From NCBI RefSeq assembly GCF_013122565.1, contig NZ_CP053258.1: DNA of 64,000 bases, one strand, 5' to 3'. The notes below the pieces were generated by a model. That model had not been told where the DNA came from. It made no database searches and saw nothing but the letters and a program-made list of their open reading frames with translations. The number at the start of each line of letters is the position of its first letter. The stretch's first letter is position 1. The position numbers were made by a program, and so were the translations under genes. Shown piece by piece: positions 1 through 54,306 of this stretch. This DNA is from Escherichia coli. GTDB taxonomy: Bacteria; Pseudomonadota; Gammaproteobacteria; Enterobacterales; Enterobacteriaceae.

Positions 1-1201
1 AGTCCCAGTGCAGGGTTTCATTGTCCAGATACTGGAGTGCTTCACCAACGTTATTGAAATCCCTTTTCTTCAGTTTATAAGACATCCCCTTTATTGTTCC
101 GTTACTGGCTACATCTGCTCCGCCTCCCAGCCTGTCTGCTACCGACCGACTAATTTTGTAAAGCTGTGAACCGTTAATGGCTTCATTACTGTCCGTCGAG
201 ATGTCACCTGCCGCCATATTGACGATGCGACGCTGTTGTGAGTTTGAGCCGACCGACACAACGTTGTCTTCATCTGTTGTAGAGTTTGCACCAATCGCGA
301 CGGAATTACTCCCTCCTACATAGGACGAACTCCCCAATGCAAGACCGTTTGATCCAACCGCTGCACTACCAGTCCCGATCGCAATACCATTTGTGGCTGA
401 CGCAGCGCTATTCTGGCCTAATGCAATGGTATTTGTGTTTAATGCTTGCGCATTTTGCCCAAAGGCAAGAGCGTTTGCGCCAGTAGCCGCTGCTGTATAC
501 CCCAGAGCAACAGCGCTTTCTCCTGTTGAATTGCTGTTTGCGCCTAATGCGAGGCTATTTTGGCCTCTTGCCCTCGCTTGAGTACCTACAGCCGTCGCAT
601 TTTCAGCAGCTTCGGTCTCTGCGCCTATCGCGATGGCGTTTGCTTCGCTAGTCAGGGCTTTTCTTCCTAATGCCAGGCTTTGCTCGCCGGTTGCCTTGCT
701 TTCATTGCCGAAGGCTAACGCGTAATTACCTTTAGCAATTGCCATTACGCCCATTGCCATCGCGTAGTTGCCACTCGCATCGGCGGAGGCTCCCATTGCG
801 GTAGCCCTATCGCCGCTAGCATAAGCATTAACCCCCAATGCGGTTGACGCATCGCCGCCAGCAGAACTTCTTGCACCGATAGACGTGCTATATTTACCTA
901 AAGCGCTGGCGAGCTCCCCAATAGCCGTCGATGCTCCATCGGTACTTGTGTGCTGGCTCGCTGTAGAGTTCTTACCGATAGCAACCCATCCATCACCACT
1001 ATTATGTCCTGCAGGTACAACGGGATTACCCGCAACATTATCTGCATATGCAAATGTCGATAACATTCCGCTGGCTGCAATTAACGTCGATACGAGCAGC
1101 TTACTGCGTCCAGACTTCTTTCCTCGACTCTTCGCCGTTTCGCTGGCGACACGAAAATTGCCCGTCGCTGGATCCCAGATAACTTTAAAAATTTTATTCA
1201 T
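1..1201 (-). CDS. upaG: Trimeric autotransporter adhesin (UpaG/EhaG/SadA-like), N-terminal ~400 codons; partial, continues beyond window start
   Basis: Hand translation of reverse strand from ATG at 1201: [36 protein letters not shown]... (extended signal peptide typical of autotransporters), then Gly/Ala/Ser-rich YadA-like head repeats (NSxAxG). Frame checked open to position 1. Missing from ORF track because no stop lies in the window. Confidence 0.75.
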
Positions 1202-1244
1202 GGTTGATGTTCTCTATTTCTTGATTTAAGCGCAGCGAGCATAT

Positions 1245-1946
1245 TTATTTTTTGCTTTTCCGCTGTTGAGTTGCAGTGGGTTGAAGGTTGTCGAATTGAA
1301 TATTTGTCATATCGATAGCTAACTTCAGATAGCTAAGGTTGTTAGGCGAAATGCCTTTAAGTGTGAGATTGATGTCCTGCCATTGCCCCGGCATTAATTG
1401 CAATGAGGATTTCAGCGAGGTGCTGAAAAGCAGTTGTTGCCATTTATCATAAGCTTTTGGATCCGTAGGTCTCTCAGCACCCCATGTGGCGTGGAAGCCA
1501 ATGTTGGAGACAGGAACACTTAACAGATTGACCAACGAAATACGAATAACACTGCCGTTTTCAACCGCGTCGATGGATAGCACTCGTCCCGCCAAACCAA
1601 CTGAGCCGTTATTTAAAATGAAGTATTTAGTTTGCGCAGGGTTAAATTCTGTGAATAGAAACTCATTTTGTTGTTTTTTGATTTCCTTCACGGCATCGGT
1701 AAGTATTCTTGTACTTCCTGTGATAATGTTTTGTTGCTTTTCAATAAGTTCCGTTTTATTGATGTACTGTTCTTGCTGTTTCTCCAGGGCGTCTATTCTG
1801 TTTTTTTGTAATTCTTGCTGTTTGGTTAGATCATCTATTAATTTTGTTTTTTCAACATAGTCACACCCCGTCAACGTGTAGAGTGATACTAAAGCCAGTA
1901 CGCTTAAGAGTATTGCCTTGAAGTTAATCATTGAATTCCTTTTCAT
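1245..1946 (-). CDS. Lipoprotein with coiled-coil region, SadB-like (putative helper for the adjacent trimeric autotransporter)
   Basis: 233-aa ORF; signal peptide with lipobox LTGC; Q/E/K-rich heptad-like segment; ends 43 bp upstream of the adhesin start on the same strand. Confidence 0.6.
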   Translation of the reverse strand: MKRNSMINFKAILLSVLALVSLYTLTGCDYVEKTKLIDDLTKQQELQKNRIDALEKQQEQYINKTELIEKQQNIITGSTRILTDAVKEIKKQQNEFLFTEFNPAQTKYFILNNGSVGLAGRVLSIDAVENGSVIRISLVNLLSVPVSNIGFHATWGAERPTDPKAYDKWQQLLFSTSLKSSLQLMPGQWQDINLTLKGISPNNLSYLKLAIDMTNIQFDNLQPTATQQRKSKK

Positions 1947-2454
1947 TATCTTCCAATAAGGGTGAATTTTTTAGCGAATCATCTTTTAAATAAATAATTC
2001 ATTGCTTATGTATTTGTGGTAGGAATCATAAATAAGCGATCGGATTTTTAGCATCATTAATATATTATTAAGTATCAACTGATTTAAAATTATTTCAAAA
2101 GGTATTAAAGCGCGGGGATTCTAATTAACAATGTTAATTAATGTCAAATGTAAAGTAGCTAATGATTGGCACTCTGAGAACTGAATATTGCTGTAAGTGA
2201 AATTAGCGCAATAGTTTTTGTGATATTGATCGGGGCAATATCAGTATCGGTTATCAGTTAATCAATGAAATGCGATAATCTATTTGTTATATTTATATAA
2301 TATTTTTTTTGCTCAACACATTTTTCAGACAATAGTCCGCAGCAATGACTCAAGAGCTAGAGAGAAGGAGGGGATGGAACTTAGTTTTTTTGCCTCTGAA
2401 GCAAACTCCTGCATCTCTCTGCAGGAGCGATTTGTCATTTGAGATACTGTCTTC

Positions 2455-3322: not shown

Positions 3323-3910
3323 TTACTTTTGGAAGGCTTTTTTTAAGCTGATTTTGGAAATCAGCTCTGTCAGTGAAAGGACCATTGTTGATCGCACAGC
3401 CTGTTGATAGCGCTGAATTTGCATTGCATACAAACTGGAGTCTGCAGGTTCAAACTGTGGCGGCGGTGGTAACGCCGCCACGCAATGCAGTTCACCAAAG
3501 GGTCCAAGGATTTCGTCGTCGGTAAACGCGTACTCGTTGCCGTCGTGATTTAGCTCTTCACGCAATGCCATCAGCAGTTCCGCATCTTCGTATTCCTGGC
3601 GGTTAATGACGCCCAACCCGTAAATGAGTTTTAAACGCACAGAAAGATCGCCCAGCGGACCATCGCCGTCGAGTAACGGTTCTACAGCATACTTCACCGC
3701 GTAATCGTCTTTGCGGAATACCTGAAGCACCAGAAGATTTACCGCTTCGGTCAGGAGCTCGACGGCGGTGATCAGAAAGCTTCGCACGGTTTTGCCAGCA
3801 TTCAGACGCTCAAGCACACGGTTTTCAAAGGCCTGGGTTTGTTCCATTATTGCCTGCATATCTGACAATCTGTTATTCGGGCGCAGGGTGTCCTGCGCCT
3901 GGTCCACCAT
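3323..3910 (-). CDS. mtlR: Mannitol operon repressor MtlR
   Basis: 195-aa [39 protein letters not shown]...; immediately downstream of mtlD. Confidence 0.9.
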   Translation of the reverse strand: MVDQAQDTLRPNNRLSDMQAIMEQTQAFENRVLERLNAGKTVRSFLITAVELLTEAVNLLVLQVFRKDDYAVKYAVEPLLDGDGPLGDLSVRLKLIYGLGVINRQEYEDAELLMALREELNHDGNEYAFTDDEILGPFGELHCVAALPPPPQFEPADSSLYAMQIQRYQQAVRSTMVLSLTELISKISLKKAFQK

Positions 3911-5287: not shown

Positions 5288-7201
5288 TTACTTATGACCT
5301 GCCAGCAGTTCCAGCACTTCATCCACGCTGGTGGTGTGTGCCAGACGCTCGATGACGGACTCATCATCCAGTGCATTGGTCAGGCTGGTGATAACCTGAA
5401 TGTGCTCGTTGTTGCGGGCAGCAATACCAATCACCAGACGGGCAATGTCATCTTCTTCTTCACCGAAGCGCACGCCTTCCGGGTACTGGCAGAACACGAC
5501 GCCCGTTTTCAGTACGCGATCTTTCGCTTCAACCGTACCGTGTGGCACCGCGATAGACTCACCCAGATAAGTCGGGGTCAGTTTTTCACGATCCAACATC
5601 GCCTGAACGTATTCCGGCTCAACGTAACCGCCTTTCACCAGCTGCTCGCCAGCAAAACGAATCGCTTCTTCTTTGGTTGCCGCTTTGCGACCGAGGAAGA
5701 TGTTCTCCGCGCCCAGTTTGAATAGGTTAGCACTGGAATCGTCAAAGCTGTCTTTCAGACTGTCTTTCACTTTCACTTCGTTTTCAGTATGGCGCTGGGC
5801 AGCAACCAGACGTTCGGTCAGGCTGGTGTACAGGCCACTGTCGAGGAAGTTGGTCAGCGAAATATGCTGCGCCTGCGGAACCTGGCGCATAGCGCGTTCG
5901 GTCAGGTCACGGTGAGTGATGACGAGGTCCACATCTGGCGGCAGGTTGTTGATCGCGCTGTTAGTGACCGAAATCTGCGACAGACCTGCATCCTGAATTT
6001 TCTTACGCAGCACGCCTGCGCCCATCGCACTTGAACCCATACCGGCGTCACAGGCAACGATGATTTTACGTACGTGGCTCAGGTCGTTAGTCACATCACC
6101 CGCAGACAGCGGAGATGCGCCTTTAGACTCAGCTTTCATGTCCTGCATACGACGAGTTGCTGCTTCAATATCATCTTCTTCTTTCACTTTGCTGGTTTTC
6201 AGCAAAATAGCAGAGACAACGAAGGAGACAGCCATCGCCGCACACACACCCGCGATGTTAGCGAAATAAGCACCTTTTGGTGTCATCGCCAGTACCGCAA
6301 GGATAGAACCCGGAGATGCCGGAGAAACCAGACCACCGCCCAGGATAGTCAGCGTGAACACGCCAGTCATACCGCCGAGGATAACGGCCAGGATCAGACG
6401 CGGATTCATCAGCACATACGGGAAGTAGATTTCGTGGATACCACCCAGGAAGTGGATGATTGCCGCACCACCCGCAGACTGTTTAGCACTACCACGACCA
6501 AAGAACATGTACGCCAGCAGCACGCCCATACCTGGACCTGGGTTAGCTTCAATCAGGAAGAAGATGGATTTACCCAGTTCATGGGACTGCTGAATACCCA
6601 GCGGCGAGAAGATACCGTGGTTAATGGCGTTGTTGAGGAACAGGATTTTCGCCGGTTCAACAAAGATAGATGCCAGCGGCAGCATGTCATGGACAACCAT
6701 GAAGTTAACGCCCGCAGCCAGCATTTTGGACAGGGCTTCAACAATCGGGCCAATGCCGAGGAATGCCAGAATGGCGAGGATCATCCCGATGATGCCTGCG
6801 GAGAAGTTATTCACCAGCATCTCAAAACCGGATTTGATCTTACCGTCTACCCAGCGGTCGAAGTGCTTAATGCACCAGCCGCCCAGCGGACCTGCAATCA
6901 TAGAGCCGAGGAACATCGGCATGTCTGCGCCGACGATAACGCCCATGGTGGTGATGGCACCGACTACGCCGCCACGTTCGCCGCCTACCAGCTTACCACC
7001 GGTATAACCGATCAGCAGCGGCAGGAGGTAAGTGATCATCGGTCCGACTAGCTTCGCCAGCGTCTCGTTCGGTAACCACCCTGTTGGAATAAATAATGCG
7101 GTGATGATACCCCACGCGATAAACGCGCCGATATTTGGCATCACCATGTTGCTGAGGAAACGACCAAAGCTTTGCACTTTGATCTTAATATCGGATGACA
7201 T
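5288..7201 (-). CDS. mtlA: PTS mannitol-specific EIICBA component
   Basis: 637-aa [40 protein letters not shown]...; recognised as MtlA. Confidence 0.95.
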
Positions 7202-7737: not shown

Positions 7738-8100
7738 ATGTTTCTAAACTATTTCGCGTTAGGAGTGCTGATCTTCGTCTTTCTGGTGATTTTTTATGGA
7801 ATCATCGCGATACATGACATCCCTTATCTGATTGCCAAAAAGCGCAACCATCCCCATGCCGACGCTATTCATACGGCGGGCTGGGTGAGCCTGTTTACTC
7901 TGCATGTTATCTGGCCGTTTCTGTGGATTTGGGCGACGCTCTATCAACCGGAGCGCGGGTGGGGCATGCAGTCACATGTTGCGTCGCAGGAGAAAGCGAC
8001 TGACCCGGAAATCGCCGCACTTTCTGACCGAATTTCCCGGCTGGAGCACCAACTCGCCGCCGAGAAAAAGACTGACTATTCCACGTTCCCGGAGATCTAA
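7738..8100 (+). CDS. yibI: DUF3302 small inner-membrane protein YibI
   Basis: 120-aa [48 protein letters not shown]...; stop is 2 nt before the yibH start. Confidence 0.85.
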
Positions 8101-8102
8101 TT

Positions 8103-9239
8103 ATGGATCTATTGATTGTTTTAACTTACGTGGCGCTGGCGTGGGCGGTCTTTAAAATCTTCCGCATTCCAGTAAATCAGTGGACGCTGGCGACGGCGGC
8201 GCTGGGAGGCGTGTTTCTGGTGAGTGGTTTGATTTTGTTGATGAACTACAACCACCCTTACACTTTTACCGCGCAAAAGGCTGTGATAGCGATCCCCATC
8301 ACGCCACAGGTGACGGGAATTGTTACTGAAGTCACTGACAAGAATAATCAGCTTATTCAAAAGGGCGAGGTACTTTTTAAGCTCGACCCGGTTCGTTACC
8401 AGGCGCGAGTTGACAGACTTCAGGCTGACCTGATGACGGCGACGCATAATATAAAGACGCTGCGCGCCCAGCTCACTGAAGCGCAGGCCAACACCACCCA
8501 GGTTTCAGCGGAGCGCGACCGTCTGTTTAAAAATTATCAACGTTATCTGAAAGGCAGCCAGGCGGCGGTGAATCCGTTCTCGGAACGTGACATCGACGAT
8601 GCGCGGCAAAATTTCCTCGCGCAGGATGCGCTGGTGAAAGGCTCGGTGGCGGAGCAGGCGCAGATCCAGAGCCAGCTCGACAGTATGGTTAACGGCGAGC
8701 AATCGCAGATTGTGAGCTTAAGAGCGCAACTTACTGAAGCAAAATATAATCTTGAGCAGACTGTCATTCGCGCGCCGAGCAATGGCTACGTTACTCAGGT
8801 ACTGATCCGCCCAGGCACATACGCAGCTGCCTTGCCGCTGCGTCCGGTGATGGTCTTCATCCCCGAGCAAAAACGGCAAATTGTCGCCCAATTTCGGCAA
8901 AACTCGCTGTTACGTCTGAAACCCGGCGATGATGCGGAAGTGGTGTTTAACGCGCTACCTGGGCAGGTGTTTCACGGCAAACTGACCAGTATTTTACCTG
9001 TCGTGCCAGGCGGTTCTTATCAGGCGCAGGGGGTATTGCAATCATTAACGGTCGTGCCCGGCACGGACGGTGTGCTGGGAACCATTGAACTGGACCCTAA
9101 CGATGATATCGATGCCTTACCCGACGGCATCTACGCCCAGGTGGCAGTTTACTCCGACCATTTCAGCCATGTTTCGGTGATGCGTAAGGTGCTGCTAAGA
9201 ATGACCAGTTGGATGCATTATCTTTATTTGGATCATTGA
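8103..9239 (+). CDS. yibH: HlyD-family membrane-fusion-like protein YibH
   Basis: 378-aa ORF; N-terminal TM segment, central coiled coil, C-terminal beta domain; paralog of the ORF at 16271..17407. Confidence 0.85.
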
Positions 9240-9309
9240 GACTTATATCACCTGTGTTTTGCGTGAGCCTGAGCCATACTGATATTTTTCCTCGCACAAA
9301 GGACTCGGC

Positions 9310-9918
9310 ATGAAACTCGTCGGTAGCTACACCAGCCCGTTTGTACGCAAACTTTCTATTCTGTTGTTAGAAAAGGGCATAACTTTCGAATTTATTAATG
9401 AACTGCCCTATAACGCGGACAACGGCGTGGCGCAATTTAACCCGTTAGGAAAAGTGCCGGTGCTGGTGACCGAAGAGGGCGAATGCTGGTTTGATTCGCC
9501 GATCATCGCTGAATATATTGAGTTAATGAATGTCGCTCCGGCGATGTTGCCGCGCGATCCGCTGGAGTCGTTGCGGGTGCGCAAAATTGAGGCGCTGGCG
9601 GATGGCATCATGGATGCCGGGCTGGTATCGGTGCGTGAACAGGCGCGTCCGGCGGCGCAGCAGTCTGAAGATGAATTGTTACGTCAGCGTGAGAAAATCA
9701 ACCGTAGCCTTGATGTGCTGGAAGGATATCTGGTCGATGGCACACTCAAAACCGATACGGTCAATCTGGCGACTATCGCCATTGCCTGTGCCGTTGGATA
9801 TCTCAATTTCCGCCGCGTTGCGCCAGGCTGGTGTGTCGACCGCCCACACTTAATCAAACTGGTCGAAAACCTGTTTAGCCGCGAAAGTTTTGCTCGCACC
9901 GAACCGCCAAAGGCTTGA
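9310..9918 (+). CDS. yibF: Glutathione S-transferase family protein YibF
   Basis: 202-aa [31 protein letters not shown]... (GST N-terminal thioredoxin-like fold). Confidence 0.85.
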
Positions 9919-10015
9919 TGCGCGATATGTCCTCCTGACCCATCTCACGTTACAATCCGTGGTTATGTTAAACGCCCTTCTCCGTGTGAGAGGGCCTTGA
10001 TCAGCCAGGTTTCCT

Positions 10016-11407
10016 ATGACAACCGAAACGCGTTCCCTCTATAGTCAACTTCCGGCTATTGATCGCTTATTGCGCGATAGCTCCTTCCTTTCTTTGCGTG
10101 ATACTTATGGTCACACCCGCGTAGTGGAATTGCTGCGTCAGATGCTTGACGAAGCGCGAGAAGTGATTCGTGACAGCCAGACGCTGCCTGCGTGGTGTGA
10201 AAACTGGGCGCAAGAAGTCGATGCCCGGTTGACGAAAGAGGCGCAGAGCGCGCTGCGTCCGGTGATCAACCTGACGGGAACCGTGCTGCATACCAACCTT
10301 GGTCGAGCTTTACAGGCGGAAGCCGCGGTGGAAGCCGTTGCGCAGGCTATGCGTTCGCCAGTGACCCTCGAGTACGATCTGGACGACGCCGGACGCGGAC
10401 ATCGCGATCGGGCGCTGGCGCAGTTGCTGTGCCGCATTACGGGGGCGGAAGATGCCTGTATCGTTAATAACAATGCGGCGGCGGTGTTATTGATGTTGGC
10501 GGCCACTGCCAGCGGGAAAGAGGTGGTGGTATCTCGCGGCGAACTGGTGGAGATTGGCGGCGCGTTTCGTATTCCCGATGTTATGCGTCAGGCAGGCTGC
10601 ACCCTACACGAAGTAGGGACCACCAACCGCACGCACGCGAATGATTATCGTCAGGCGGTGAATGAAAATACCGCGCTGTTGATGAAAGTACATACCAGTA
10701 ACTACAGCATTCAGGGGTTCACCAAAGCGATAGACGAAGCGGAACTGGTGGCGCTCGGCAAAGAACTGGATATTCCCGTAGTGACTGATTTAGGCAGTGG
10801 CTCGCTGGTCGATCTTAGCCAGTACGGTTTGCCGAAAGAGCCAATGCCGCAGGAGTTGATTGCGGCGGGCGTCAGTCTGGTGAGCTTCTCCGGCGACAAG
10901 CTGTTAGGCGGGCCGCAGGCAGGAATTATTGTTGGTAAAAAAGAGATGATCGCCCGCCTGCAAAGCCACCCGCTGAAGCGTGCATTACGCGCGGATAAAA
11001 TGACCCTTGCGGCGCTGGAAGCTACGTTGCGTCTTTATTTACACCCTGAAGCTCTGAGTAAAAAATTACCGACCCTGCGCCTGCTTACCCGCAGCGCAGA
11101 GGTCATTCAAATCCAGGCACAACGTTTACAGGCTCCCCTTGCCGCACATTACGGCGCGGAGTTTGCAGTCCAGGTTATGCCATGTCTTTCGCAGATTGGC
11201 AGTGGTTCGCTGCCGGTTGATCGCCTGCCGAGCGCGGCATTAACGTTTACACCCCATGATGGACGCGGTAGCCACCTTGAGTCATTAGCCGCCCGCTGGC
11301 GTGAATTGCCAGTGCCGGTGATTGGTCGTATTTATGACGGACGATTGTGGCTGGATTTACGCTGCCTTGAAGATGAGCAACGGTTTTTGGAGATGTTGTT
11401 GAAATGA
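10016..11407 (+). CDS. selA: L-seryl-tRNA(Sec) selenium transferase
   Basis: 463-aa [45 protein letters not shown]...; ATGA overlap with selB. Confidence 0.95.
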
Positions 11408-13248
11408 TTATTGCGACTGCCGGACACGTTGACCACGGCAAAACAACCTTATTGCAGGCGATTACTGGCGTAAATGCCGATCGTCTGCCGGAAGAAAAAA
11501 AGCGCGGCATGACTATCGATCTCGGCTATGCCTACTGGCCGCAGCCGGATGGCCGCGTGCCTGGTTTTATCGACGTGCCCGGTCATGAAAAGTTTCTTTC
11601 CAACATGCTGGCGGGCGTTGGTGGTATCGATCACGCGCTGTTGGTGGTGGCGTGCGATGACGGCGTGATGGCACAGACCCGTGAGCATCTGGCGATTTTG
11701 CAGCTGACCGGTAACCCGATGCTGACAGTGGCGCTGACCAAGGCCGATCGCGTGGACGAAGCGCGTGTTGATGAGGTTGAACGTCAGGTAAAGGAGGTGC
11801 TGCGGGAATACGGTTTTGCTGAGGCAAAACTGTTTATCACCGCAGCAACCGAAGGTCGGGGAATTGATGCCCTGCGCGAGCATCTGCTTCAGTTACCAGA
11901 ACGTGAGCACGCCAGCCAACATAGTTTCCGCCTCGCGATCGACCGCGCATTTACCGTAAAAGGTGCCGGGCTGGTCGTCACCGGTACGGCGTTAAGCGGG
12001 GAAGTGAAGGTAGGCGATTCACTCTGGCTGACTGGTGTAAATAAACCGATGCGTGTACGTGCACTGCATGCACAAAACCAGCCAACAGAAACCGCTCATG
12101 CCGGCCAGCGTATCGCGCTTAACATCGCGGGGGATGCGGAAAAAGAGCAGATTAACCGTGGCGACTGGCTGCTTGCCGATGTGCCGCCAGAGCCGTTCAC
12201 GCGGGTGATTGTCGAGCTTCAAACCCATACGCCGCTGACCCAGTGGCAGCCGCTGCATATTCACCACGCCGCCAGCCACGTTACGGGACGCGTTTCGCTG
12301 CTGGAAGATAACCTTGCCGAGCTGGTGTTCGACACGCCGCTGTGGCTGGCGGATAACGATCGCTTAGTGTTGCGCGATATCTCGGCCCGCAATACGCTCG
12401 CGGGGGCGCGTGTGGTGATGCTTAACCCGCCGCGTCGCGGTAAACGTAAGCCGGAATATCTGCAATGGCTGGCGTCACTGGCACGGGCGCAGAGCGATGC
12501 CGATGCGTTATCTGTTCATCTGGAACGCGGCGCGGTTAACCTTGCGGATTTCGCCTGGGCGCGCCAGCTCAACGGCGAAGGGATGCGCGAATTGCTGCAA
12601 CAGCCGGGCTATATTCAGGCTGGTTATAGCTTGTTGAATGCGCCGGTTGCCGCCCGCTGGCAGCGGAAAATTCTCGACACATTAGCGACTTATCATGAGC
12701 AACATCGCGATGAACCTGGCCCTGGGCGCGAACGTCTGCGACGTATGGCGTTGCCAATGGAAGATGAAGCGCTGGTACTGTTGCTGATTGAAAAGATGCG
12801 CGAAAGCGGCGACATCCTCAGTCATCACGGTTGGCTGCATCTGCCAGATCACAAAGCGGGCTTCAGCGAAGAGCAGCAGGCCATCTGGCAAAAAGCAGAG
12901 CCGCTGTTTGGTGACGAGCCGTGGTGGGTGCGTGATCTGGCAAAAGAGACGGGTACCGACGAGCAGGCAATGCGCCTGACTCTACGCCAGGCGGCGCAGC
13001 AAGGAATAATTACCGCGATCGTTAAAGATCGTTATTACCGTAACGATCGGATTGTCGAATTTGCCAATATGATCCGCGATCTCGATCAGGAATGTGGCTC
13101 GACCTGCGCGGCGGATTTCCGCGATCGCTTAGGCGTAGGCCGAAAGCTGGCAATTCAGATTCTGGAATATTTTGACCGCATTGGCTTTACACGTCGTCGT
13201 GGAAATGATCATTTATTGCGCGACGCATTATTATTTCCGGAAAAATAA
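11404..13248 (+). CDS. selB: Selenocysteine-specific translation elongation factor
   Basis: 614-aa [25 protein letters not shown]... (GTPase G1 motif), length matches SelB. Confidence 0.95.
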
Positions 13249-13328: not shown

Positions 13329-13419
13329 TTGCGAATGATTAAAAGAGTAATAGCGCTCATATTTTAAATTAAAATATTTTGTAAGCTTCGCGTCATTTTA
13401 TACTCGTTCAGGGTGTTTT

Positions 13420-13696
13420 ATGGCAGCCTCCATCTTTTTTATCCCTTCAGATAATGCCTTTGGCGTAGATTCTTTAAAAGATGCAATGAATATGATGATA
13501 TGGAATATGGCTTTCACCGTACATGGATGAACTGACGAAGAAAGTGGATATCCCGGCAGGCCTACGCGACCTGAACGTGAAAGAAGAAGATTTCGCGGTA
13601 CTGGCGACTAATGCCCTGAAAGATGCCTGTGGCTTTACTAACCCGATCCAGGCAACTCACGAAGAAATTGTGGCGATTTATCGCGCCGCAATGTAA
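13420..13696 (+). pseudogene. yiaY: Remnant of Fe-dependent alcohol dehydrogenase gene yiaY (N-terminal ~35 codons and C-terminal 56 codons, internal deletion with frame change)
   Basis: 13420..13530 encodes MAASIFFIPSDNAFGVDSLKDAMNMM...HG then stop; from 13526 in the +1 frame [56 protein letters not shown] to the stop at 13694..13696. Both ends resemble YiaY termini as I recall them; the ~300 central codons are missing. Confidence 0.7.
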
Positions 13697-13860
13697 TCAT
13701 CATTCCCACAACGGCTGGCAAATTGTCAGCCGCTTTTTCAACTATCTCTGTAATCCTTGCCCGTAAATTCGTGATAGCTGTCGTAAAGCTGTTACCGACT
13801 GGCGAAGATTTCGCCAGTCACGTCTACCCTTGTTATACCTCACACCGCAAGGAGACGATC

Positions 13861-19244: not shown

Positions 19245-19375
19245 ACCGATGGATGTCGGTGCGGCTGGCCTACGCTCTCGCACCGACTCGTATGCCTGAT
19301 AAGACGTTTTAAGCGTCGCATTAGGCAATGTACTCCCTACGTTGGATGCGGCGCGAGCGCCTTATCCAACCTCCG
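19245..19375. repeat. REP elements between yiaT and the GH127 gene
   Basis: REP-type palindromes (gcctgataagacg...cgtcgcattaggc; ggatgcggcgcgagcgccttatcc); overlaps the 3' end of the GH127 ORF. Confidence 0.7.
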
Positions 19376-21341
19376 GATGGCGATGCTTTTCCTCATTCAC
19401 CCAGATCCGCATTTCACCTTCACCCCGGTTAGCCCAGCTAAACCACGGGATAAATGTCAGAGTTTGCGGCTGGCGTTTGGCTGGGGCATAGTCGTAATGC
19501 CACAACGGTTGTTGTTCTGGATTGCTCTGTTCATACCGGTAACCCGGTGCCTGGATTAAGATCTTATGGCTGAACAATCCCTTACCTTCAAATGTCGTAA
19601 ATGGCGCATCGGCGGGCAGCCACAGATTATGCAGTGACTCGCCGTTGTCAGCCTGTTCCAGGCAATACACCAGCGGGCCGCGCTGAATCGCCACTTTTCC
19701 GGCGACGTGACGCACCAGCGGGTTACCGTAAACGCGGCGTACCGGCATCGGCAAAGTCAGATTCAGCGTATCGCCCTCCTGCCATTCGCGGGTAATGTGC
19801 AAATACCCTTTACGAATATCCTGCTCGACCTCTTCCCCATTCAATATGATCTGCGGCTGTGTGCACCAGTCCGGCAGACGTAAAGCCAGCGTATGACGTA
19901 CCGGCTGGGGCGATTCAACCGCAATCGTCACCTGCTCCTGCCACGGATAGTTCCCGCTAACCCGCAGGCGCAGCGTGCCATTTTCTACCGGCACTTCCAT
20001 GCTGTTTCCTGCGTATATGTTGATATACAACGCATCTTCACGCGGCGTGTAGAGATAATGACCGATTGAGGTCAGCACGCGGGCGATATTTGGCGGACAA
20101 CAAGCGCAGCCAAACCAACGCTGGCGGATCGGCTTAATGTGATCGTAGATATGGTTGAATTTCAGCGATTTTGGATGTACTTCCAGCGGATTCACATAGA
20201 AGAAATGTTTGCCATCCAGCGCCATGCCGCCGAGCACAGTGTTGTACAGTGCGCGCTCCATCACATCGGCATATTGACTGTCGCCTTCCATTTCCAGCAT
20301 TCGTCGGGCGAACATCATCAGGCCGATGGAAGCACAGCTTTCGGCGTAAACCGTGTCATTCGGCAGATCGTAATCGCTGCTGAACGCTTCGCCGCTACTC
20401 TGTGAGCCAATGCCACCGGTAATATATAACTGACGCTGGGCCATATTGTTCCACAGCCGCAGGCAGTCCTGACGCTTGCTGTCATCGTGACTTAAACGCG
20501 CGAGATGCGCGACGCCGGTCATCAGGTAGACAAAACGTACCGCGTGACCGATGGCGGTTTGCTGTTGCGCAAGGGGCAAATGTGCCTGGCTGTAGGCTTT
20601 GTCTTTCACCATCCACGCCGGGCCGTAGGTGTGCCAGTGCGAGGTCTGCCCGCGCTTTTCATATTCCTGGTCGTAATAGTGCGGTTGCGCACCACGCTGT
20701 TCGACAAAATAGTTCGTCAATGCCAGGTAGCGCGGCTCTTCGGTCACTTCATACAGACGCATCAGTGCCAGTTCAATTTCCGGGTGACCAGGGTAACCGT
20801 GTAACTTACTTTCATCTGGACCAAATACGCTGTCGATATGATCGGCCAGACGGCAAACCACTTCCAGCAAGCGCCGCTTGCCCGTGGCCTGGAAGAAGGC
20901 GACTCCAGCTTCAATCAGATGACCGGCGCAGTAAAGTTCATGACACTCCGCCAGATTGCTCCAGCGTTCTTCGGGCGCTTTTACCGTAAAGTAAGTATTG
21001 AGATAGCCGTCTTCGCACTGGGCGGAGGCGATCAGTTCGATTACCTCGTCGGCGGTTTTTTCCAGTTCGGCGTCCGGCTTCTGGCACAGCGACCAGGCTA
21101 CCGCTTCCAGCCATTTGGCGACGTCGCTGTCCTGAAACACCATCCCGTAAAATTCACCCTCCTGAAGTCCGGCGGCAATGCGAAAGTTTTCAATCGCATG
21201 GCTGGGTTCCGCTTCTGGGATACGATCGTTCAAGGCATCCCACTGATAAGGAATCACCACGTCGCGGACCAGTTGTTGGTACTGACCGAGGAACGGATCG
21301 CTGACCGTCAGTTTATGCAGATCGACTTCCGAAATGTTCAT
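19362..21341 (-). CDS. Glycoside hydrolase family 127 (DUF1680; beta-L-arabinofuranosidase-like)
   Basis: ORF track 19362..21365; start trimmed to MNISEVD (ATG at 21341) because AAGGAG lies 6 nt upstream. Contains YAESCASIG and WFGCACCPPNIAR motifs, matching the Glu/Cys and Cys-Cys signatures I associate with GH127. Confidence 0.75.
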   Translation of the reverse strand: MNISEVDLHKLTVSDPFLGQYQQLVRDVVIPYQWDALNDRIPEAEPSHAIENFRIAAGLQEGEFYGMVFQDSDVAKWLEAVAWSLCQKPDAELEKTADEVIELIASAQCEDGYLNTYFTVKAPEERWSNLAECHELYCAGHLIEAGVAFFQATGKRRLLEVVCRLADHIDSVFGPDESKLHGYPGHPEIELALMRLYEVTEEPRYLALTNYFVEQRGAQPHYYDQEYEKRGQTSHWHTYGPAWMVKDKAYSQAHLPLAQQQTAIGHAVRFVYLMTGVAHLARLSHDDSKRQDCLRLWNNMAQRQLYITGGIGSQSSGEAFSSDYDLPNDTVYAESCASIGLMMFARRMLEMEGDSQYADVMERALYNTVLGGMALDGKHFFYVNPLEVHPKSLKFNHIYDHIKPIRQRWFGCACCPPNIARVLTSIGHYLYTPREDALYINIYAGNSMEVPVENGTLRLRVSGNYPWQEQVTIAVESPQPVRHTLALRLPDWCTQPQIILNGEEVEQDIRKGYLHITREWQEGDTLNLTLPMPVRRVYGNPLVRHVAGKVAIQRGPLVYCLEQADNGESLHNLWLPADAPFTTFEGKGLFSHKILIQAPGYRYEQSNPEQQPLWHYDYAPAKRQPQTLTFIPWFSWANRGEGEMRIWVNEEKHRHPEVG

Positions 21342-21351
21342 CTTGTGCTCC

Positions 21352-22752
21352 TTAAGGCTGTACATGACGCTGACGCAGGTCGGTAGCTATGCGTGACATC
21401 ATAGGATTATTGAGTTTGCAAAAGCGGATCGCCCCTGCCAGCAGCAGGTGAAATAGCGCAGGCAGTAATGTTTCCATCGCCGCGATCCCGCCAAGCGAAC
21501 TGGCGGTCTGGTTTTCCATGCCTGGCTGGTAGGCGACAAAAATAAACAGCAGGCTGATGATCCCGGCGCTGGAGGCCCAGGCCAGCTTGATGAAAAACAG
21601 ATTGAAGGCGAAGTTCATGCCGGAAGAACGTACGCGGGTTTTCCACTCGCCGTAGTCATCGGCAAAGGCCATCAATGAGAAGTGCAGTGGCAATGTGAAG
21701 CCAAGAATTACGCCATTACCGAGGATCACCGCCAGCCACAGCGTTTGATAAGCCGGGCCGGAGGGCAGGAACCACATCAACACCGCCAGCGCAGCGAGGA
21801 GCAGGTTGGTGTAGTAGTAAATTTTGACGGTATCGAAACGCCGCGTTAACGGGCTGACAATCACCGAGCCGATAATGGAGGCGAAGGTGACCATGGTGAA
21901 GAACAGCGACGTGTAGCCCGTACTGCCTTGTAAGACGTAGGTAATGAAGTACATATACCCACCGCCGCGAATATTAAAGACGTTAATCAGCAGGAAAGAC
22001 ATGACCAGCATCAGCAGCAGTTGGTCGTTGTTCCGCAGCCCGGCAAGATGTTCGCGCAGGGTAAATTTCCCCATTGTGGAGAGCGGCACCCGTTCACGAA
22101 CCCAGAAAAAACAGCACAGGAACATCACCACGGCAATGGCGCACAATACGCCGACGCCCAGTTGATAGCCGCGTGCAGCGTTGCCCTGACCGAAGAGATC
22201 TACCATCCACGGTAAGCCTACCGAAACCAGAAATCCCGCTACGCCGCAGAGAACGAATCGCCAGGACTGGCAGGAGATCACTTCATTGTGGCGGGTGGTC
22301 ATGGTGTTGATCAGCGCGCAGTACGGTACGTTGATGGCGGTATAACCGACTGAAAGGAGCAGGTAAGTACCGAACGCCCAGGCGATTTTTACTCCCATGC
22401 TGGCATCTGGCACGGTGAACGTCAGGATGCCGATAATGCCGATGGGAATGGCAATCCATAGCTGCCACGGACGAAAGCGCCCCCAGCGACTTTGCGTCCG
22501 GTCGGCAATGACGCCCATCACCGGGTCGGAGATGGCATCAAACACGCGCAGTGCAATAAACAGCGTGCCAACCAGCGCCGGAGTTAATCCAAAAACGTCG
22601 GTGTAGAAAAAGGTGAGAAAATTCATGATCAGGCAAGTTATTACGGTGCCGCCTGCGTCACCCAGGCCGTAGCCTATTTTTTCCCGTACAGATAACGCAT
22701 CGTCAATTTTACCTTTAGCGATATCAGCGGTAGTAATCGGTGTAGAGGTCAT
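21352..22752 (-). CDS. MFS transporter, glycoside-pentoside-hexuronide (GPH):cation symporter family
   Basis: 466-aa ORF; N-terminal [10 protein letters not shown]...[20 protein letters not shown] motif typical of MelB/UidB-type symporters; about 12 TM segments; stop overlaps the SD of the downstream hydrolase. Confidence 0.8.
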
Positions 22753-22884
22753 AGATATTCCTCGTGAATAGGGAGCAATTTTTAGTTTTATTGCAATGAC
22801 CTGATTAATTCTGCCGTGAACGGGAATATCAACAAGGCGAGAAAAGAGTAAAAAAAGGTGACGATTCCGACCTGTATTTAAAAG

Positions 22885-22900
22885 TGTGAAATGGATCAGG
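22885..22900. promoter_or_regulatory. CRP-like half-consensus site in divergent promoter region between GPH transporter and AraC regulator
   Basis: tgtgaaatggatcagg (TGTGA-N6-TCAGG) in an AT-rich intergenic region; weaker than the mtl sites. Confidence 0.35.
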
Positions 22901-22977
22901 TGAAATTAATGTTTTTGATTAATAATCAAAAGGTAATGTGTTTAATCCTTAATAAATAAGCGGGAAATTACATATCA

Positions 22978-23793
22978 ATGCTCGAATTATCCATGACGTT
23001 ACCGATTAAAGTGCAAAATGGTGGATTATTTATTTCCCGTGGCGTAGGGAGGCATCCGGCAAGGCGGCTGGAGTCATGGGAAATTATCTTTGTCGAAAAA
23101 GGTCGATTAACGATTCAGGAAGAAGAACGGATATTTCTGGTCGATGCGGGAGAGAGTTTATTACTCTGGCCGAACCGACAGCATGTTGGGGTGGAGGATT
23201 TTCCCGCCGATCTCAAATTTTACTGGCTGCATTTTGAGGTTAAAGCGCCGGACAACGACCCTCGCTGGCTTACTCATCTTAGCGTGCCGCAACAAACGAA
23301 GGTTGCCGATCCGCAGGCGCTGGTGGCCCTGTTTCGCCAGTTCTTAAGCGAACAGGAAAAGCATCAACGCACTCCGGCGCTGGAGTTTATTGTGCTGCTC
23401 ATTTTGCAGCAGCTCACCCGTGACGCGCGTCTTGATGAACAGGCCGATGGCGCAGGCACCACCCTTGCCTGGAAGGCGCAGAAACTGATTCGCACGCAAT
23501 ATCACCGCCCGCTTTCCACGGCGCTTCTGGCCCGCGAGCTGTACTGCAATGCCGATTATCTTGGGCGTGTCTATCGGCGAGTGTTTCATCTGACGCTTAC
23601 AGAAGCAATCCACCGCCAGCGGGTGCGCGAAGCCGAAAAGCTGTTAATTAGCGAAGCTCGATCGCTCACGGAAGTGGCGGCGTTGTGCGGGTTTAATGAC
23701 GTTGGCTATTTCCGGCAGATTTTTCGCAAGCACACCGGTTTAACGCCAGCAGCGTGGAAGCGGCGTTACAGCAAGGAACATATCAATTCGTAG
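22978..23793 (+). CDS. AraC/XylS-family transcriptional regulator
   Basis: 271-aa ORF (true start may be M6 at 22993); N-terminal cupin-like effector domain, C-terminal double HTH (...LTEVAALCGFNDVGYFRQIFRKHTGLTPAAWKRR); divergent from the transporter-hydrolase pair. Confidence 0.8.
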   Translation: MLELSMTLPIKVQNGGLFISRGVGRHPARRLESWEIIFVEKGRLTIQEEERIFLVDAGESLLLWPNRQHVGVEDFPADLKFYWLHFEVKAPDNDPRWLTHLSVPQQTKVADPQALVALFRQFLSEQEKHQRTPALEFIVLLILQQLTRDARLDEQADGAGTTLAWKAQKLIRTQYHRPLSTALLARELYCNADYLGRVYRRVFHLTLTEAIHRQRVREAEKLLISEARSLTEVAALCGFNDVGYFRQIFRKHTGLTPAAWKRRYSKEHINS

Positions 23794-52619: not shown

Positions 52620-52894
52620 TAAAATCCTCATGCCCCATAAATCCTGGTTAATACGATTGTGTTTAATAATCACCTGTTGAATATAATATTATTTATCTAT
52701 TCATTAAGTGAAATTTTTTTTCGGAATTTATCAACAAGAGTGAAATCAGAATTTACGCTAGAATAGCTGCGGGTGCTTGAGACTGTTTGTCTCAGGTATT
52801 CACCGAAAGGCAGACAGAGAAAAGCCCCACCTGACTATAAATCAAAGTGTACTGCACCCATTTTGTTGGACGATGAAATGGAATAGCCCCTGAT

Positions 52895-53416
52895 ATGTCA
52901 AAGCCAAAATACCCTTTTGAAAAGCGCCTTGAAGTCGTGAATCACTACTTCACTACTGATGATGGTTACAGGATCATCTCGGCACGTTTTGGTGTCCCCC
53001 GAACCCAGGTCAGGACATGGGTTGCCCTCTATGAAAAACATGGAGAAAAAGGTTTAATTCCCAAACCTAAAGGTGTTAGTGCTGATCCAGAGTTGCGTAT
53101 TAAGGTCGTGAAAGCTGTGATCGAGCAGCACATGTCCCTTAATCAGGCTGCTGCTCACTTTATGCTTGCTGGTAGTGGTTCTGTAGCCAGGTGGCTGAAG
53201 GTTTATGAAGAGCGCGGAGAAGCTGGTTTACGCGCGCTCAAGATTGGCACCAAAAGAAACATTGCAATATCAGTTGATCCAGAAAAAGCGGCATCAGCAT
53301 TGGAGCTGTCAAAAGACCGACGCATTGAGGATCTTGAAAGGCAAGTTCGATTTCTTGAAACGCGGCTTGTGTATCTAAAAAAGCTGAAAGCCTTAGCTCA
53401 TCCCACGAAAAAGTGA
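52895..53416 (+). CDS. insJ: IS150 OrfA (HTH DNA-binding protein)
   Basis: 173-aa ORF MSKPKYPFEKRLEVVNHYFTTDDGYRIISARFGVPRTQVRTWVALYEKHGEKGL... Confidence 0.95.
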   Translation: MSKPKYPFEKRLEVVNHYFTTDDGYRIISARFGVPRTQVRTWVALYEKHGEKGLIPKPKGVSADPELRIKVVKAVIEQHMSLNQAAAHFMLAGSGSVARWLKVYEERGEAGLRALKIGTKRNIAISVDPEKAASALELSKDRRIEDLERQVRFLETRLVYLKKLKALAHPTKK

Positions 53417-54264
53417 AAGTACTCAACGAGCTAAGGCAGTTTTATCCTCTTGATGAGCTTCTCAGGGCTGCGGAGATACCGCGCAGTACGTTTTATTACC
53501 ATCTAAAGGCTCTCAGCAAGCCTGACAAGTATGCGGACGTTAAAAAGCGTATTGGTGAGATTTATCATGAGAATAGAGGCCGATACGGATACCGTAGGGT
53601 AACGCTGTCTCTTCATCGAGAAGGGAAACAGATTAACCATAAAGCTGTTCAGCGCCTGATGGGAACCCTCTCACTTAAGGCAGCGATTAAGGTCAAGCGA
53701 TACCGCTCTTACAGAGGAGAGGTAGGGCAAACCGCCCCCAATGTTCTCCAAAGAGATTTCAAGGCTACGCGGCCAAACGAGAAGTGGGTTACCGATGTTA
53801 CTGAATTTGCAGTCAATGGGCGCAAGCTGTATTTGTCTCCAGTAATAGATCTCTTCAACAATGAAGTTATTTCTTACAGCCTTTCGGAAAGACCTGTGAT
53901 GAACATGGTTGAGAATATGCTCGATCAGGCATTCAAAAAGCTTAATCCTCACGAGCATCCTGTTCTGCACTCTGACCAGGGATGGCAGTATCGTATGAGA
54001 AGATATCAAAATATCCTTAAAGAACATGGTATTAAACAAAGCATGTCCAGAAAAGGCAATTGTCTGGATAATGCTGTGGTGGAGTGTTTCTTTGGAACCT
54101 TAAAGTCGGAGTGTTTTTATCTTGATGAGTTCAGTAATATAAGCGAACTGAAGGATGCTGTTACGGAATATATTGAATACTACAACAGAAGAAGAATTAG
54201 CCTGAAATTAAAAGGTCTGACTCCAATTGAATATCGGAATCAGACCTATATGCCTCGTGTTTAA
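53413..54264 (+). CDS. insK: IS150 OrfB (DDE integrase/transposase catalytic domain)
   Basis: 283-aa ORF overlapping insJ; DDE region (WVTDVTEF..., HSDQGWQY...); OrfAB fusion expected by -1 frameshift at the heptamer. Confidence 0.95.
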
Positions 54265-54306
54265 CTGTCCAACTTTTTGGGGTCAGTACAAAGTGAGGCT
54301 GCCTCT

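What the first reader, a model, noticed from the sequence alone, without database searches (positions are those of the whole stretch)
9240..9309. No Rhs element between yibH and yibF
Only 70 bp separate the yibH stop from the yibF start. In K-12, as I recall, this position holds the rhsA element with yibA, yibJ and yibG. Here the junction is clean, with no Rhs core fragment or orphan toxin/immunity remnant visible.
Basis: partly seen in the sequence, partly recalled or inferred. Interest (0 to 1): 0.3.

Follow-up and report, generated by a model that had tools for sequence, protein, structure and literature searches.

The report
Empty RhsA site between yibH and yibF
This E. coli-like strain lacks the 8.2-kb RhsA toxin element that K-12 carries between yibH and yibF; this empty site looks like the original arrangement, occurs in about 28% of complete E. 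coli genomes, and is an ordinary, long-known strain difference.

Summary
The yibH stop codon is at 9237-9239, the yibF ATG is at 9310, and 70 bp lie between them.

The recalled K-12 gene order is also correct. MG1655 has rhsA-yibA-yibJ'-yibG-yibS'-yibW'-yibV-yibU' between the two genes. Homology to K-12 stops at window base 9240 and resumes at 9273. So 32 bp here (9241-9272) stand where K-12 has 8,249 bp. No Rhs, yibA, yibJ, yibG or yibV remnant occurs anywhere in the 64-kb window.

- **Frequency:** the same empty junction, including the 32 bp, is in 1,522 of 5,426 complete E. coli genomes. About 3,720-3,750 have the K-12-type junctions.
- **Direction of change:** four non-coli Escherichia lineages (90-93% identical in DNA) have the same 70-bp spacer. 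Citrobacter, Kluyvera, Lelliottia and others also have yibH next to yibF. The empty site is therefore the ancestral state, not a deletion scar.
- **Literature:** Jackson et al. 2009 list yibF/yibH as Rhs "position 10", gained after one group of pathogenic strains split off.

Two minor additions:
- A -10-like CATACT about 35 nt upstream of yibF is conserved across genera. The RhsA boundary lies 2 nt upstream of it.
- Another strain carries an unrelated 12.3-kb fimbrial/protease island at the same spot.

Verdict: real, already known, low interest.

The parts
5288..7201 (-). mtlA, the left-hand conserved neighbour, divergent from yibI
   Evidence: 637-aa ORF. Collinear with K-12 mtlA. Annotated as mtlA in strain C9.
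7738..8100 (+). yibI (DUF3302)
   Evidence: ORF. Pfam DUF3302, E = 2.7e-41. RefSeq name.
8103..9239 (+). yibH (HlyD-family membrane-fusion protein), stop TGA at 9237-9239
   Evidence: 98.6% identical to K-12 up to base 9240.
9240..9309 (+). The 70-bp yibH-yibF spacer, which is the unoccupied RhsA site
   Evidence: The same spacer is in 1,522 of 5,426 E. coli genomes and in four non-coli Escherichia lineages. It has no Rfam match and no significant fold.
9241..9272 (+). 32-bp segment ACTTATATCACCTGTGTTTTGCGTGAGCCTGA, which stands where K-12 has 8,249 bp
   Evidence: blastn breakpoints at 9240 and 9273 against K-12 3770242 and 3761992. Conserved in E. whittamii, Escherichia sp. E1V33, 'E. coli' E69 and SCPM-O-B-8794, and partly in Citrobacter amalonaticus.
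9275..9280 (+). CATACT, a conserved -10-like hexamer 35 nt upstream of the yibF ATG. That it is a promoter element is inferred, not shown.
   Evidence: CATACT or CATAAT lies at -34 to -39 in 36 of 55 yibF loci across genera (37 of 55 have the motif; one, L025, has it at -44), whether yibH or mtlA is upstream. The consensus promoter scan did not flag it.
9299..9303 (+). AAGGA, the Shine-Dalgarno sequence of yibF, 6 nt before the ATG
   Evidence: Read from the sequence. Conserved in the alignments.
9310..9918 (+). yibF (glutathione S-transferase-like)
   Evidence: 98.2% identical to K-12 from base 9273 onward.
10016..13248 (+). selA (10016-11407) and selB (11404-13248), co-oriented downstream genes
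   Evidence: Collinear with K-12. Annotated in C9.

Best explanation
The 70-bp interval is the ancestral, never-occupied form of the yibH-yibF intergenic spacer. This is the chromosomal site where the lineage leading to K-12 and most phylogroup A/B1/E-type E. coli acquired the 8.2-kb RhsA element (phylogroup labels are my own knowledge, not tested here). RhsA consists of an rhs core gene with its toxin tip, yibA, and orphan tip/immunity fragments.

In the window, yibI, yibH, yibF, selA and selB form one co-oriented block. The spacer carries only yibF's ribosome-binding site, a -10-like CATACT conserved across genera, and a degenerate T-tract left from the yibH terminator.

Nothing is missing in a functional sense. 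The strain simply lacks this accessory toxin cassette.

Shown:
- the gene adjacency;
- the exact breakpoints;
- the frequency among E. coli genomes;
- the state in outgroup species.

Inferred:
- that this strain's own lineage never held RhsA;
- that CATACT is the yibF -10 element;
- that yibF may also be read through from yibIH, because no terminator is detectable.
For: - **Adjacency and gene identities:**
- **K-12 comparison:** K-12 has 8,249 bp in place of window 9241-9272, with homology of 98.6% and 98.2% on the two sides.
- **No remnants:** no Rhs-related sequence in the window.
- **Frequency:** the empty junction with the same 32 bp is in 1,521-1,522 of 5,426 complete E. coli genomes.
- **Shared breakpoints:** occupied genomes break at the same two positions and share the K-12 junction sequences, 3,723 on the yibH side and 3,747 on the yibF side. 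This suggests one ancestral insertion.
- **Outgroups:** four Escherichia lineages only 90-93% identical to the window have the same 70-bp spacer, with 2-4 substitutions within the 32 bp. These are L005-L008, including E. whittamii. Citrobacter, Kluyvera, Pluralibacter, Huaxiibacter, Lelliottia and UBA7338 also have yibH next to yibF, 61-174 bp apart. None of the 55 loci has an RhsA hit.
- **Literature:** Jackson et al. 2009 list yibF/yibH as Rhs position 10. They infer that it arose after the split from the strain group that lacks the clade I expansion.
- **Genome-wide counts:** 1,523 of 5,426 genomes have no megablast match to the RhsA-type core at all. That is almost the same number as have the empty site.
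Against: - The source genome is not available, so its phylogroup and Rhs content elsewhere are unknown.
- No complete RefSeq E. coli genome is closer than about 97-98.5% over 24-25 kb, so the lineage history cannot be read from close relatives.
- Not every outgroup shows the empty state. Escherichia sp. MOD1-EC7003 has K-12-type sequence upstream of yibF. E. albertii has a different gene (230 aa) there.
- Strains I know to be related (O145:H28 and O157:H7, my own knowledge) differ in state. The state has therefore changed more than once in E. coli, probably by recombination.
- The promoter and read-through statements rest on conservation alone. The consensus scan found no sigma-70-type promoter-like site (TTGACA/TATAAT consensus) and no terminator in the spacer.
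Confidence: 0.85

Rival explanations
1. Secondary loss by allelic replacement. An ancestor of this strain carried RhsA. Homologous recombination with DNA from an empty-site strain, with crossovers in yibH and in yibF/selA, replaced the occupied allele and restored the ancestral 70-bp spacer.
For: - Both states occur among strains I know to be related: O145:H28 RM12581 is empty and O157:H7 is occupied.
- Islands at this site seem to travel with divergent flanking DNA. In 23CRST013 the yibF upstream region is itself divergent. The yibF-proximal end of the K-12 element resembles spacers of other genera.
- The window is a mosaic: identity to K-12 ranges from 95.8% to 98.6% between segments.
Against: - No positive sign of a recombination tract centred on the junction. 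Identity to K-12 on the two sides is similar, 98.6% and 98.2%.
- The nearest relatives in this region, C9 and ET201, share the rare yiaY deletion with the window. C9 also has the empty site.
- The simplest reading of the outgroup data is continuous inheritance.
Confidence: 0.12
2. Deletion scar. RhsA was present and was removed by a spontaneous deletion or excision in this lineage.
For: Rhs elements are known recombination substrates (Jackson et al. 2009 background). An IS1-mediated deletion that removes this whole region exists in strain QL57EC.
Against: - A deletion cannot regenerate the 32 bp that K-12 lacks. Those 32 bp are conserved in species 7-10% diverged from the window.
- No element-derived base remains.
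- The junction matches that of 1,522 other genomes at 97-100% identity.
Confidence: 0.02
3. Assembly artefact. A repeated Rhs core caused the assembler to collapse or skip the element.
For: Rhs cores are multi-copy repeats, with a median of 6 places per genome that has any. Such repeats can break short-read assemblies.
Against: A collapse would leave core sequence or a contig break. It would not leave a spacer that matches, at 97-100% identity, 1,522 complete genomes and closely matches four other Escherichia lineages.
Confidence: 0.01

Closest known systems
The RhsA-less allele of the yibF-yibH locus. This is 'position 10' of Jackson et al. 2009 (PMC2935791). From my memory, it is also the Rhs-null strain comparison in Feulner et al. 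1990, J Bacteriol 172:446, and the ECOR survey of Hill et al. 1995.
   Same: - Same flanking genes and the same breakpoints.
- 32 bp stand in place of 8,249 bp. I recall the 8,249-bp figure from Feulner et al. 1990, which could not be read here.
- Jackson et al. list the site as variable among strains and as a late gain.
   Different: Nothing of substance differs. The window's 32 bp differ at 0-3 positions from other empty-site genomes over the 100-bp junction (97-100% identity).
The RhsA element of E. coli K-12 (rhsA-yibA-yibJ'-yibG-yibS'-yibW'-yibV-yibU').
   Same: It occupies exactly this chromosomal position, between the base after the yibH stop codon and 37 bp upstream of the yibF ATG.
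   Different: It is entirely absent here: no core, no tip, no immunity or orphan fragments. When present it lies on the strand opposite to yibH and yibF, with rhsA divergent from yibF.
A 12.3-kb island at the same site in E. coli 23CRST013 (NZ_AP045773.1). It encodes an HTH protein, a sigma-like protein, a Pef-type chaperone-usher fimbrial operon and an S6-family autotransporter protease.
   Same: It is inserted between yibH and yibF and starts at the yibH stop codon. A CATACT-type motif upstream of yibF is retained.
   Different: The cargo is unrelated, the yibH stop codon is changed from TGA to TAA, and the yibF leader is divergent. The window has no trace of it.

Membership tests
Unoccupied (RhsA-less) yibH-yibF site of E. 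coli | yibH and yibF are directly adjacent and co-oriented, with flanks collinear with K-12 | tested here: met
   a 70-bp spacer, with flanks 98.6% and 98.2% identical to K-12.
Unoccupied (RhsA-less) yibH-yibF site of E. coli | A short unique sequence (32 bp) stands where K-12 has the 8,249-bp element, with the same breakpoints as other empty-site strains | tested here: met
   Searches give breakpoints at 9240 and 9273. One search finds 1,522 genomes that match the 100-bp junction at 97-100%.
Unoccupied (RhsA-less) yibH-yibF site of E. coli | The genome lacks RhsA/B/C/F-type core homology altogether, as in the strain group that lacks the clade I Rhs expansion | not testable with these tools
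   Only the 64-kb window is available, and it has none. For context, 1,523 of 5,426 genomes have no core match and 1,522 have the empty site. Whether these are the same genomes was not verified.
Rhs element (RhsA-B-C-F subfamily) | A large GC-rich core ORF with YD/RHS repeats | tested here: not met
   tblastn of K-12 RhsA (1,377 aa) against the window gives a best E of 1.1. blastn of the 8,249-bp element gives only one 16-mer chance match.
Rhs element (RhsA-B-C-F subfamily) | An AT-rich core extension (toxin tip) with a downstream immunity gene or orphan tip fragments | tested here: not met
   YibA, YibJ, YibG and YibV queries give no hit with E below 0.1. The spacer is 70 bp with no ORF.

The most novel reading that the evidence does not exclude
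The yibH-yibF spacer may be a recurrent landing site where unrelated islands sit directly against the yibH stop codon. Two are seen so far: RhsA, and a 12.3-kb fimbrial/autotransporter island.

These islands may spread between lineages by homologous recombination of the flanks rather than by site-specific integration. The boundary on the yibF side may be held just upstream of a conserved yibF -10 element by selection.

On this reading, the classical description that 32 bp were replaced by 8,249 bp is incomplete. K-12 would retain a diverged, foreign copy of the spacer at the yibF-proximal end of its 'element'.
Probability: 0.4. Interest if true: 0.2.

Novelty: already known. Interest (0 to 1): 0.08.

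Why it matters
It matters very little beyond correct annotation. Presence or absence of RhsA at this site is a long-established strain polymorphism in E. coli.

The practical value is as a lineage marker. An empty site suggests a strain outside the group that expanded clade I Rhs elements. It predicts one fewer polymorphic-toxin/immunity cassette for inter-bacterial competition.

The empty allele also shows the native context of yibF: a 70-bp leader directly behind yibIH. That is useful for anyone studying yibF or selAB expression, because in K-12 everything upstream of -37 is element-derived DNA.

Tried and rejected
- **Hidden Rhs remnants:** tblastn and blastn of all K-12 RhsA-element products and of the whole element against the window found nothing.
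- **Structured RNA or a known RNA family in the spacer:** Rfam at E ≤ 1 gave no match. The fold z-score is +0.44, no better than shuffles.
- **Consensus sigma-70 promoter or intrinsic terminator in the spacer:** none found. The conserved CATACT is proposed from cross-genus conservation only.
- **Reading the primary Hill-laboratory papers** (Feulner 1990 and the two other Hill-laboratory papers cited by Jackson et al. as refs 20-21, incl. Wang/Zhao/Hill 1998): not held. Statements about them are marked as recollection.
- **Identifying the source strain:** no complete RefSeq E. coli genome exceeds about 97-98.5% identity over 24-25 kb. Strains C9 and ET201 share the rare yiaY deletion, but C9 is only 98.8% identical over 7 kb.
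- **Homology between the 32 bp and the yibF-proximal end of the K-12 element:** a 10-mer, TTATATCACC, recurs 69 bp inside the element (shuffle p about 0.03). The last ~22 bp of the element resemble the T-tract of outgroup spacers (p = 0.006-0.045). This is suggestive, post hoc and unproven.
- **Deletion-scar and assembly-artefact readings:** rejected, because the 32 bp are conserved in other species.

Full report
**1. Observation**

The window reads ...GGATCAT TGA at 9230-9239. This is the end of a 378-aa ORF at 8103-9239. ATG AAA CTC follows at 9310 and starts a 202-aa ORF at 9310-9918. Exactly 70 bp separate them.

Pfam assigns HlyD/CusB membrane-fusion domains to the first ORF and GST_N plus GST_C to the second. 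The 120-aa ORF upstream is DUF3302. RefSeq annotation of the best-matching stretch names the genes mtlA(-), yibI, yibH, yibF, selA and selB. That stretch is in strain C9 and is 99.1% identical over 1,071 bp.

**2. Comparison with K-12**

In NC_000913.3, yibF is on the minus strand at 3761347-3761955. It is followed by rhsA, yibA, yibJ', yibG, yibS', yibW', yibV and yibU', and then by yibH on the minus strand at 3770243-3771379.

- blastn aligns window 8001-9240 to K-12 3771481-3770242 at 98.6%.
- It aligns window 9273-10500 to K-12 3761992-3760765 at 98.2%.
- Window 9241-9272 (ACTTATATCACCTGTGTTTTGCGTGAGCCTGA, 32 bp) therefore stands where K-12 has 8,249 bp.
- From memory, 8,249 bp is the size Feulner et al. 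(1990) gave for the RhsA accessory element when they compared K-12 with an Rhs-less strain. That paper could not be opened here.
- tblastn with RhsA, YibA, YibJ, YibG and YibV, and blastn with the whole element, find nothing in the 64-kb window (best E = 0.1).

**3. How common is it?**

| State at the yibH-yibF site | Complete RefSeq E. coli genomes (of 5,426) | Calls |
|---|---|---|
| Contiguous yibH-yibF junction (1,071-bp query) | 1,521 | 3 |
| Contiguous junction including the 32 bp, 97-100% identity (100-bp query) | 1,522 | 16 |
| K-12-type junction on the yibH side | 3,723 | 20 |
| K-12-type junction on the yibF side | 3,747 | 21 |
| Something else | roughly 160 | by subtraction |

In every sampled genome that lacks the contiguous junction, the alignment stops at window 9240 and resumes at 9273. 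These are the K-12 breakpoints. Shared breakpoints and shared junction sequences point to one ancestral insertion.

Two of the 'something else' cases were examined:
- QL57EC has an IS1-bounded deletion from yibL into the 5' end of yibF.
- 23CRST013 has an unrelated 12.3-kb island between the two genes. It encodes an HTH protein, a sigma-like protein, a Pef-type fimbrial operon and an S6-family autotransporter protease. It starts inside the yibH stop codon.

The RhsA-type core has no megablast match at all in 1,523 of 5,426 genomes. That number is almost the same as the count of empty sites. I could not verify that the two sets are the same genomes.

**4. Direction of change**

A scan of one genome per species with YibF returned 55 loci. 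I located MtlA, YibI, YibH, YibF, SelA and RhsA in each with tblastn.

- **Same spacer in other Escherichia:** four lineages only 90-93% identical to the window in DNA have mtlA-yibI-yibH-yibF-selA with a spacer of exactly 70 bp. The 32 bp are conserved apart from 2-4 substitutions. The four are L005 'E. coli' SCPM-O-B-8794, L006 'E. coli' E69, L007 E. whittamii and L008 Escherichia sp. E1V33.
- **Adjacency in other genera:** Citrobacter amalonaticus, C. koseri, Citrobacter sp., Kluyvera cryocrescens, Pluralibacter, Huaxiibacter, Lelliottia and two unnamed Enterobacteriaceae also have yibH directly upstream of yibF, with spacers of 61-174 bp.
- **Genera without yibIH:** many others, such as Kosakonia and Buttiauxella, lack yibIH and have mtlA next to yibF.
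- **No Rhs anywhere:** none of the 55 loci contains an RhsA hit.
- **Two exceptions:** Escherichia sp. MOD1-EC7003 has K-12-type sequence (93%) for 147 bp upstream of the boundary, but no rhs core in the 2.9 kb available. E. albertii has a 230-aa gene ending 57 bp upstream of yibF, at the end of a short contig.

On parsimony the empty site is ancestral. A deletion could not have recreated 32 bp that are conserved across species. This agrees with Jackson et al. 2009. They list yibF/yibH as Rhs position 10 of 11. They infer that it arose, by duplication of position 5, after the split from the strain group that lacks the clade I expansion.

**5. What the 70 bp contain**

- There is no Rfam match at E ≤ 1.
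- There is no fold better than shuffled sequence, z = +0.44.
- There is no consensus sigma-70 promoter or intrinsic terminator.
- AAGGA at 9299-9303 is a Shine-Dalgarno sequence, 6 nt before the ATG.
- CATACT at 9275-9280 is notable. CATACT or CATAAT lies 34-39 nt upstream of the yibF ATG in 36 of the 55 loci (one further locus, L025, has it at -44, giving 37 of 55 with the motif). It is there whether yibH or mtlA is the upstream gene. TATACT and TATAAT variants occur at the same place in two loci that the motif search missed. I infer that it is the -10 element of a yibF promoter.
- The RhsA boundary (9272/9273) lies 2 nt upstream of this hexamer. The island in 23CRST013 also leaves the equivalent hexamer intact.
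- In some outgroups the region just after yibH forms an obvious terminator hairpin plus T-run, for example AGGCAGG...CCTGCCTTTTTT in UBA7338. In Escherichia only CACCTGTGTTTT remains.

Read-through from yibIH into yibF is therefore plausible in the empty allele. This is inference only.

**6. A nuance on 'replacement'**

- The last ~22 bp of the K-12 'element' (CTGCCCTTTTTCCCATC) align with the T-tract region of outgroup spacers in the same position relative to CATACT. Shuffle p values are 0.006 for UBA7338, 0.023 for Huaxiibacter, 0.045 for C. amalonaticus and 0.036 for E. albertii.
- The 10-mer TTATATCACC from the window's 32 bp recurs 69 bp inside the K-12 element end.
- The 120 bp proximal to yibF occur once per genome, so they are specific to this locus and not part of the repeated Rhs sequence.
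- In 23CRST013 a diverged spacer (CACCTGCTTATTTG...GTCATACT) persists on the yibF side of the island.

Together these suggest that islands enter right at the yibH stop codon and move between lineages along with diverged flanking spacer, by homologous recombination. This is suggestive and post hoc. It does not change the verdict.

**7. Rivals**

- **Secondary replacement of an occupied allele by an empty one:** not excluded, about 0.12. The state differs among strains I know to be related (O145:H28 is empty, O157:H7 is occupied), and the source genome is unavailable.
- **Deletion scar or assembly collapse:** contradicted by the conserved 32 bp.

**8. Verdict**

The feature is an already-described accessory-element polymorphism, most likely in its ancestral state. 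Interest is low.

Noticed in passing
window 13400-13700 (junction near 13524-13528): yiaY (L-threonine dehydrogenase) has an internal deletion of about 880 bp relative to K-12, leaving roughly 275 bp between selB and aldB. The same junction occurs in only 2 of 5,426 complete E. coli genomes: C9 from a cow and ET201 from a frog. It is a rare lineage marker for the source strain.
   Followed up: partly
window 52848-54292: An IS150 copy (99.1% identical to the K-12 copy) sits in the hokA/sokA locus, flanked by an AAG direct repeat. The K-12 copy lies within about 2 bp of the same site, but in the opposite orientation, without a matching target duplication, and with about 41 bp of adjacent sequence missing. 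The window's junction is shared by 880 of 5,426 genomes, so K-12 looks like the derived form.
   Followed up: partly
window 19268-23690: A 4.4-kb cluster encodes a GH127 beta-L-arabinofuranosidase-like protein (19362-21365, minus strand), an MFS_2 sugar transporter (21352-22752, minus strand) and an AraC-family regulator (22978-23793, plus strand). K-12 has only the ysaC/ysaD pseudogene remnants at this position. The cluster is intact in other E. coli such as 23CRST013.
   Followed up: partly
window 1-2441: The sequence to the left of yibL is not K-12-like, since K-12 has lldP next. Bases 1097-1950 are 75% identical to the region of 23CRST013 that holds a SadB/YajI-family lipoprotein gene and the end of a YadA-like adhesin gene. 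Bases 1-1096 found no match in that locus. This is probably a divergent allele of the trimeric-autotransporter adhesin region.
   Followed up: partly
whole window: No complete RefSeq E. coli genome matches better than about 97-97.5% (bases 1-25000) or 98.5% (bases 28000-52000), although thousands are collinear. The source seems to be a poorly sampled E. coli-like lineage or a strongly mosaic region.
   Followed up: partly
L061 12032-24032 and L062 33135-37501 (NZ_AP045773.1, E. coli 23CRST013): An unrelated 12.3-kb island occupies the same yibH-yibF site. It encodes an HTH protein, a sigma-like protein, a Pef-type chaperone-usher fimbrial operon and an S6-family autotransporter protease. It begins inside the yibH stop codon (TGA changed to TAA), and the yibF leader next to it is divergent.
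   Followed up: partly
L009 1-2962 (Escherichia sp. MOD1-EC7003) and L010 1-838 (E. albertii NBRC 107761): Two non-coli Escherichia species do not have yibH upstream of yibF. MOD1-EC7003 has the K-12-type proximal 147 bp, followed by H-repeat/ISAs1-like and small unknown ORFs but no rhs core. E. albertii has a 230-aa ORF ending 57 bp upstream of yibF. The site has been remodelled more than once in the genus.
   Followed up: partly
E. coli genome collection (not in the window): 1,523 of 5,426 complete genomes have no megablast match to the RhsA-type core, and 1,522 have the empty yibH-yibF junction. The near-identical counts suggest that the two properties go together, but I did not verify that they are the same genomes.
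   Followed up: no
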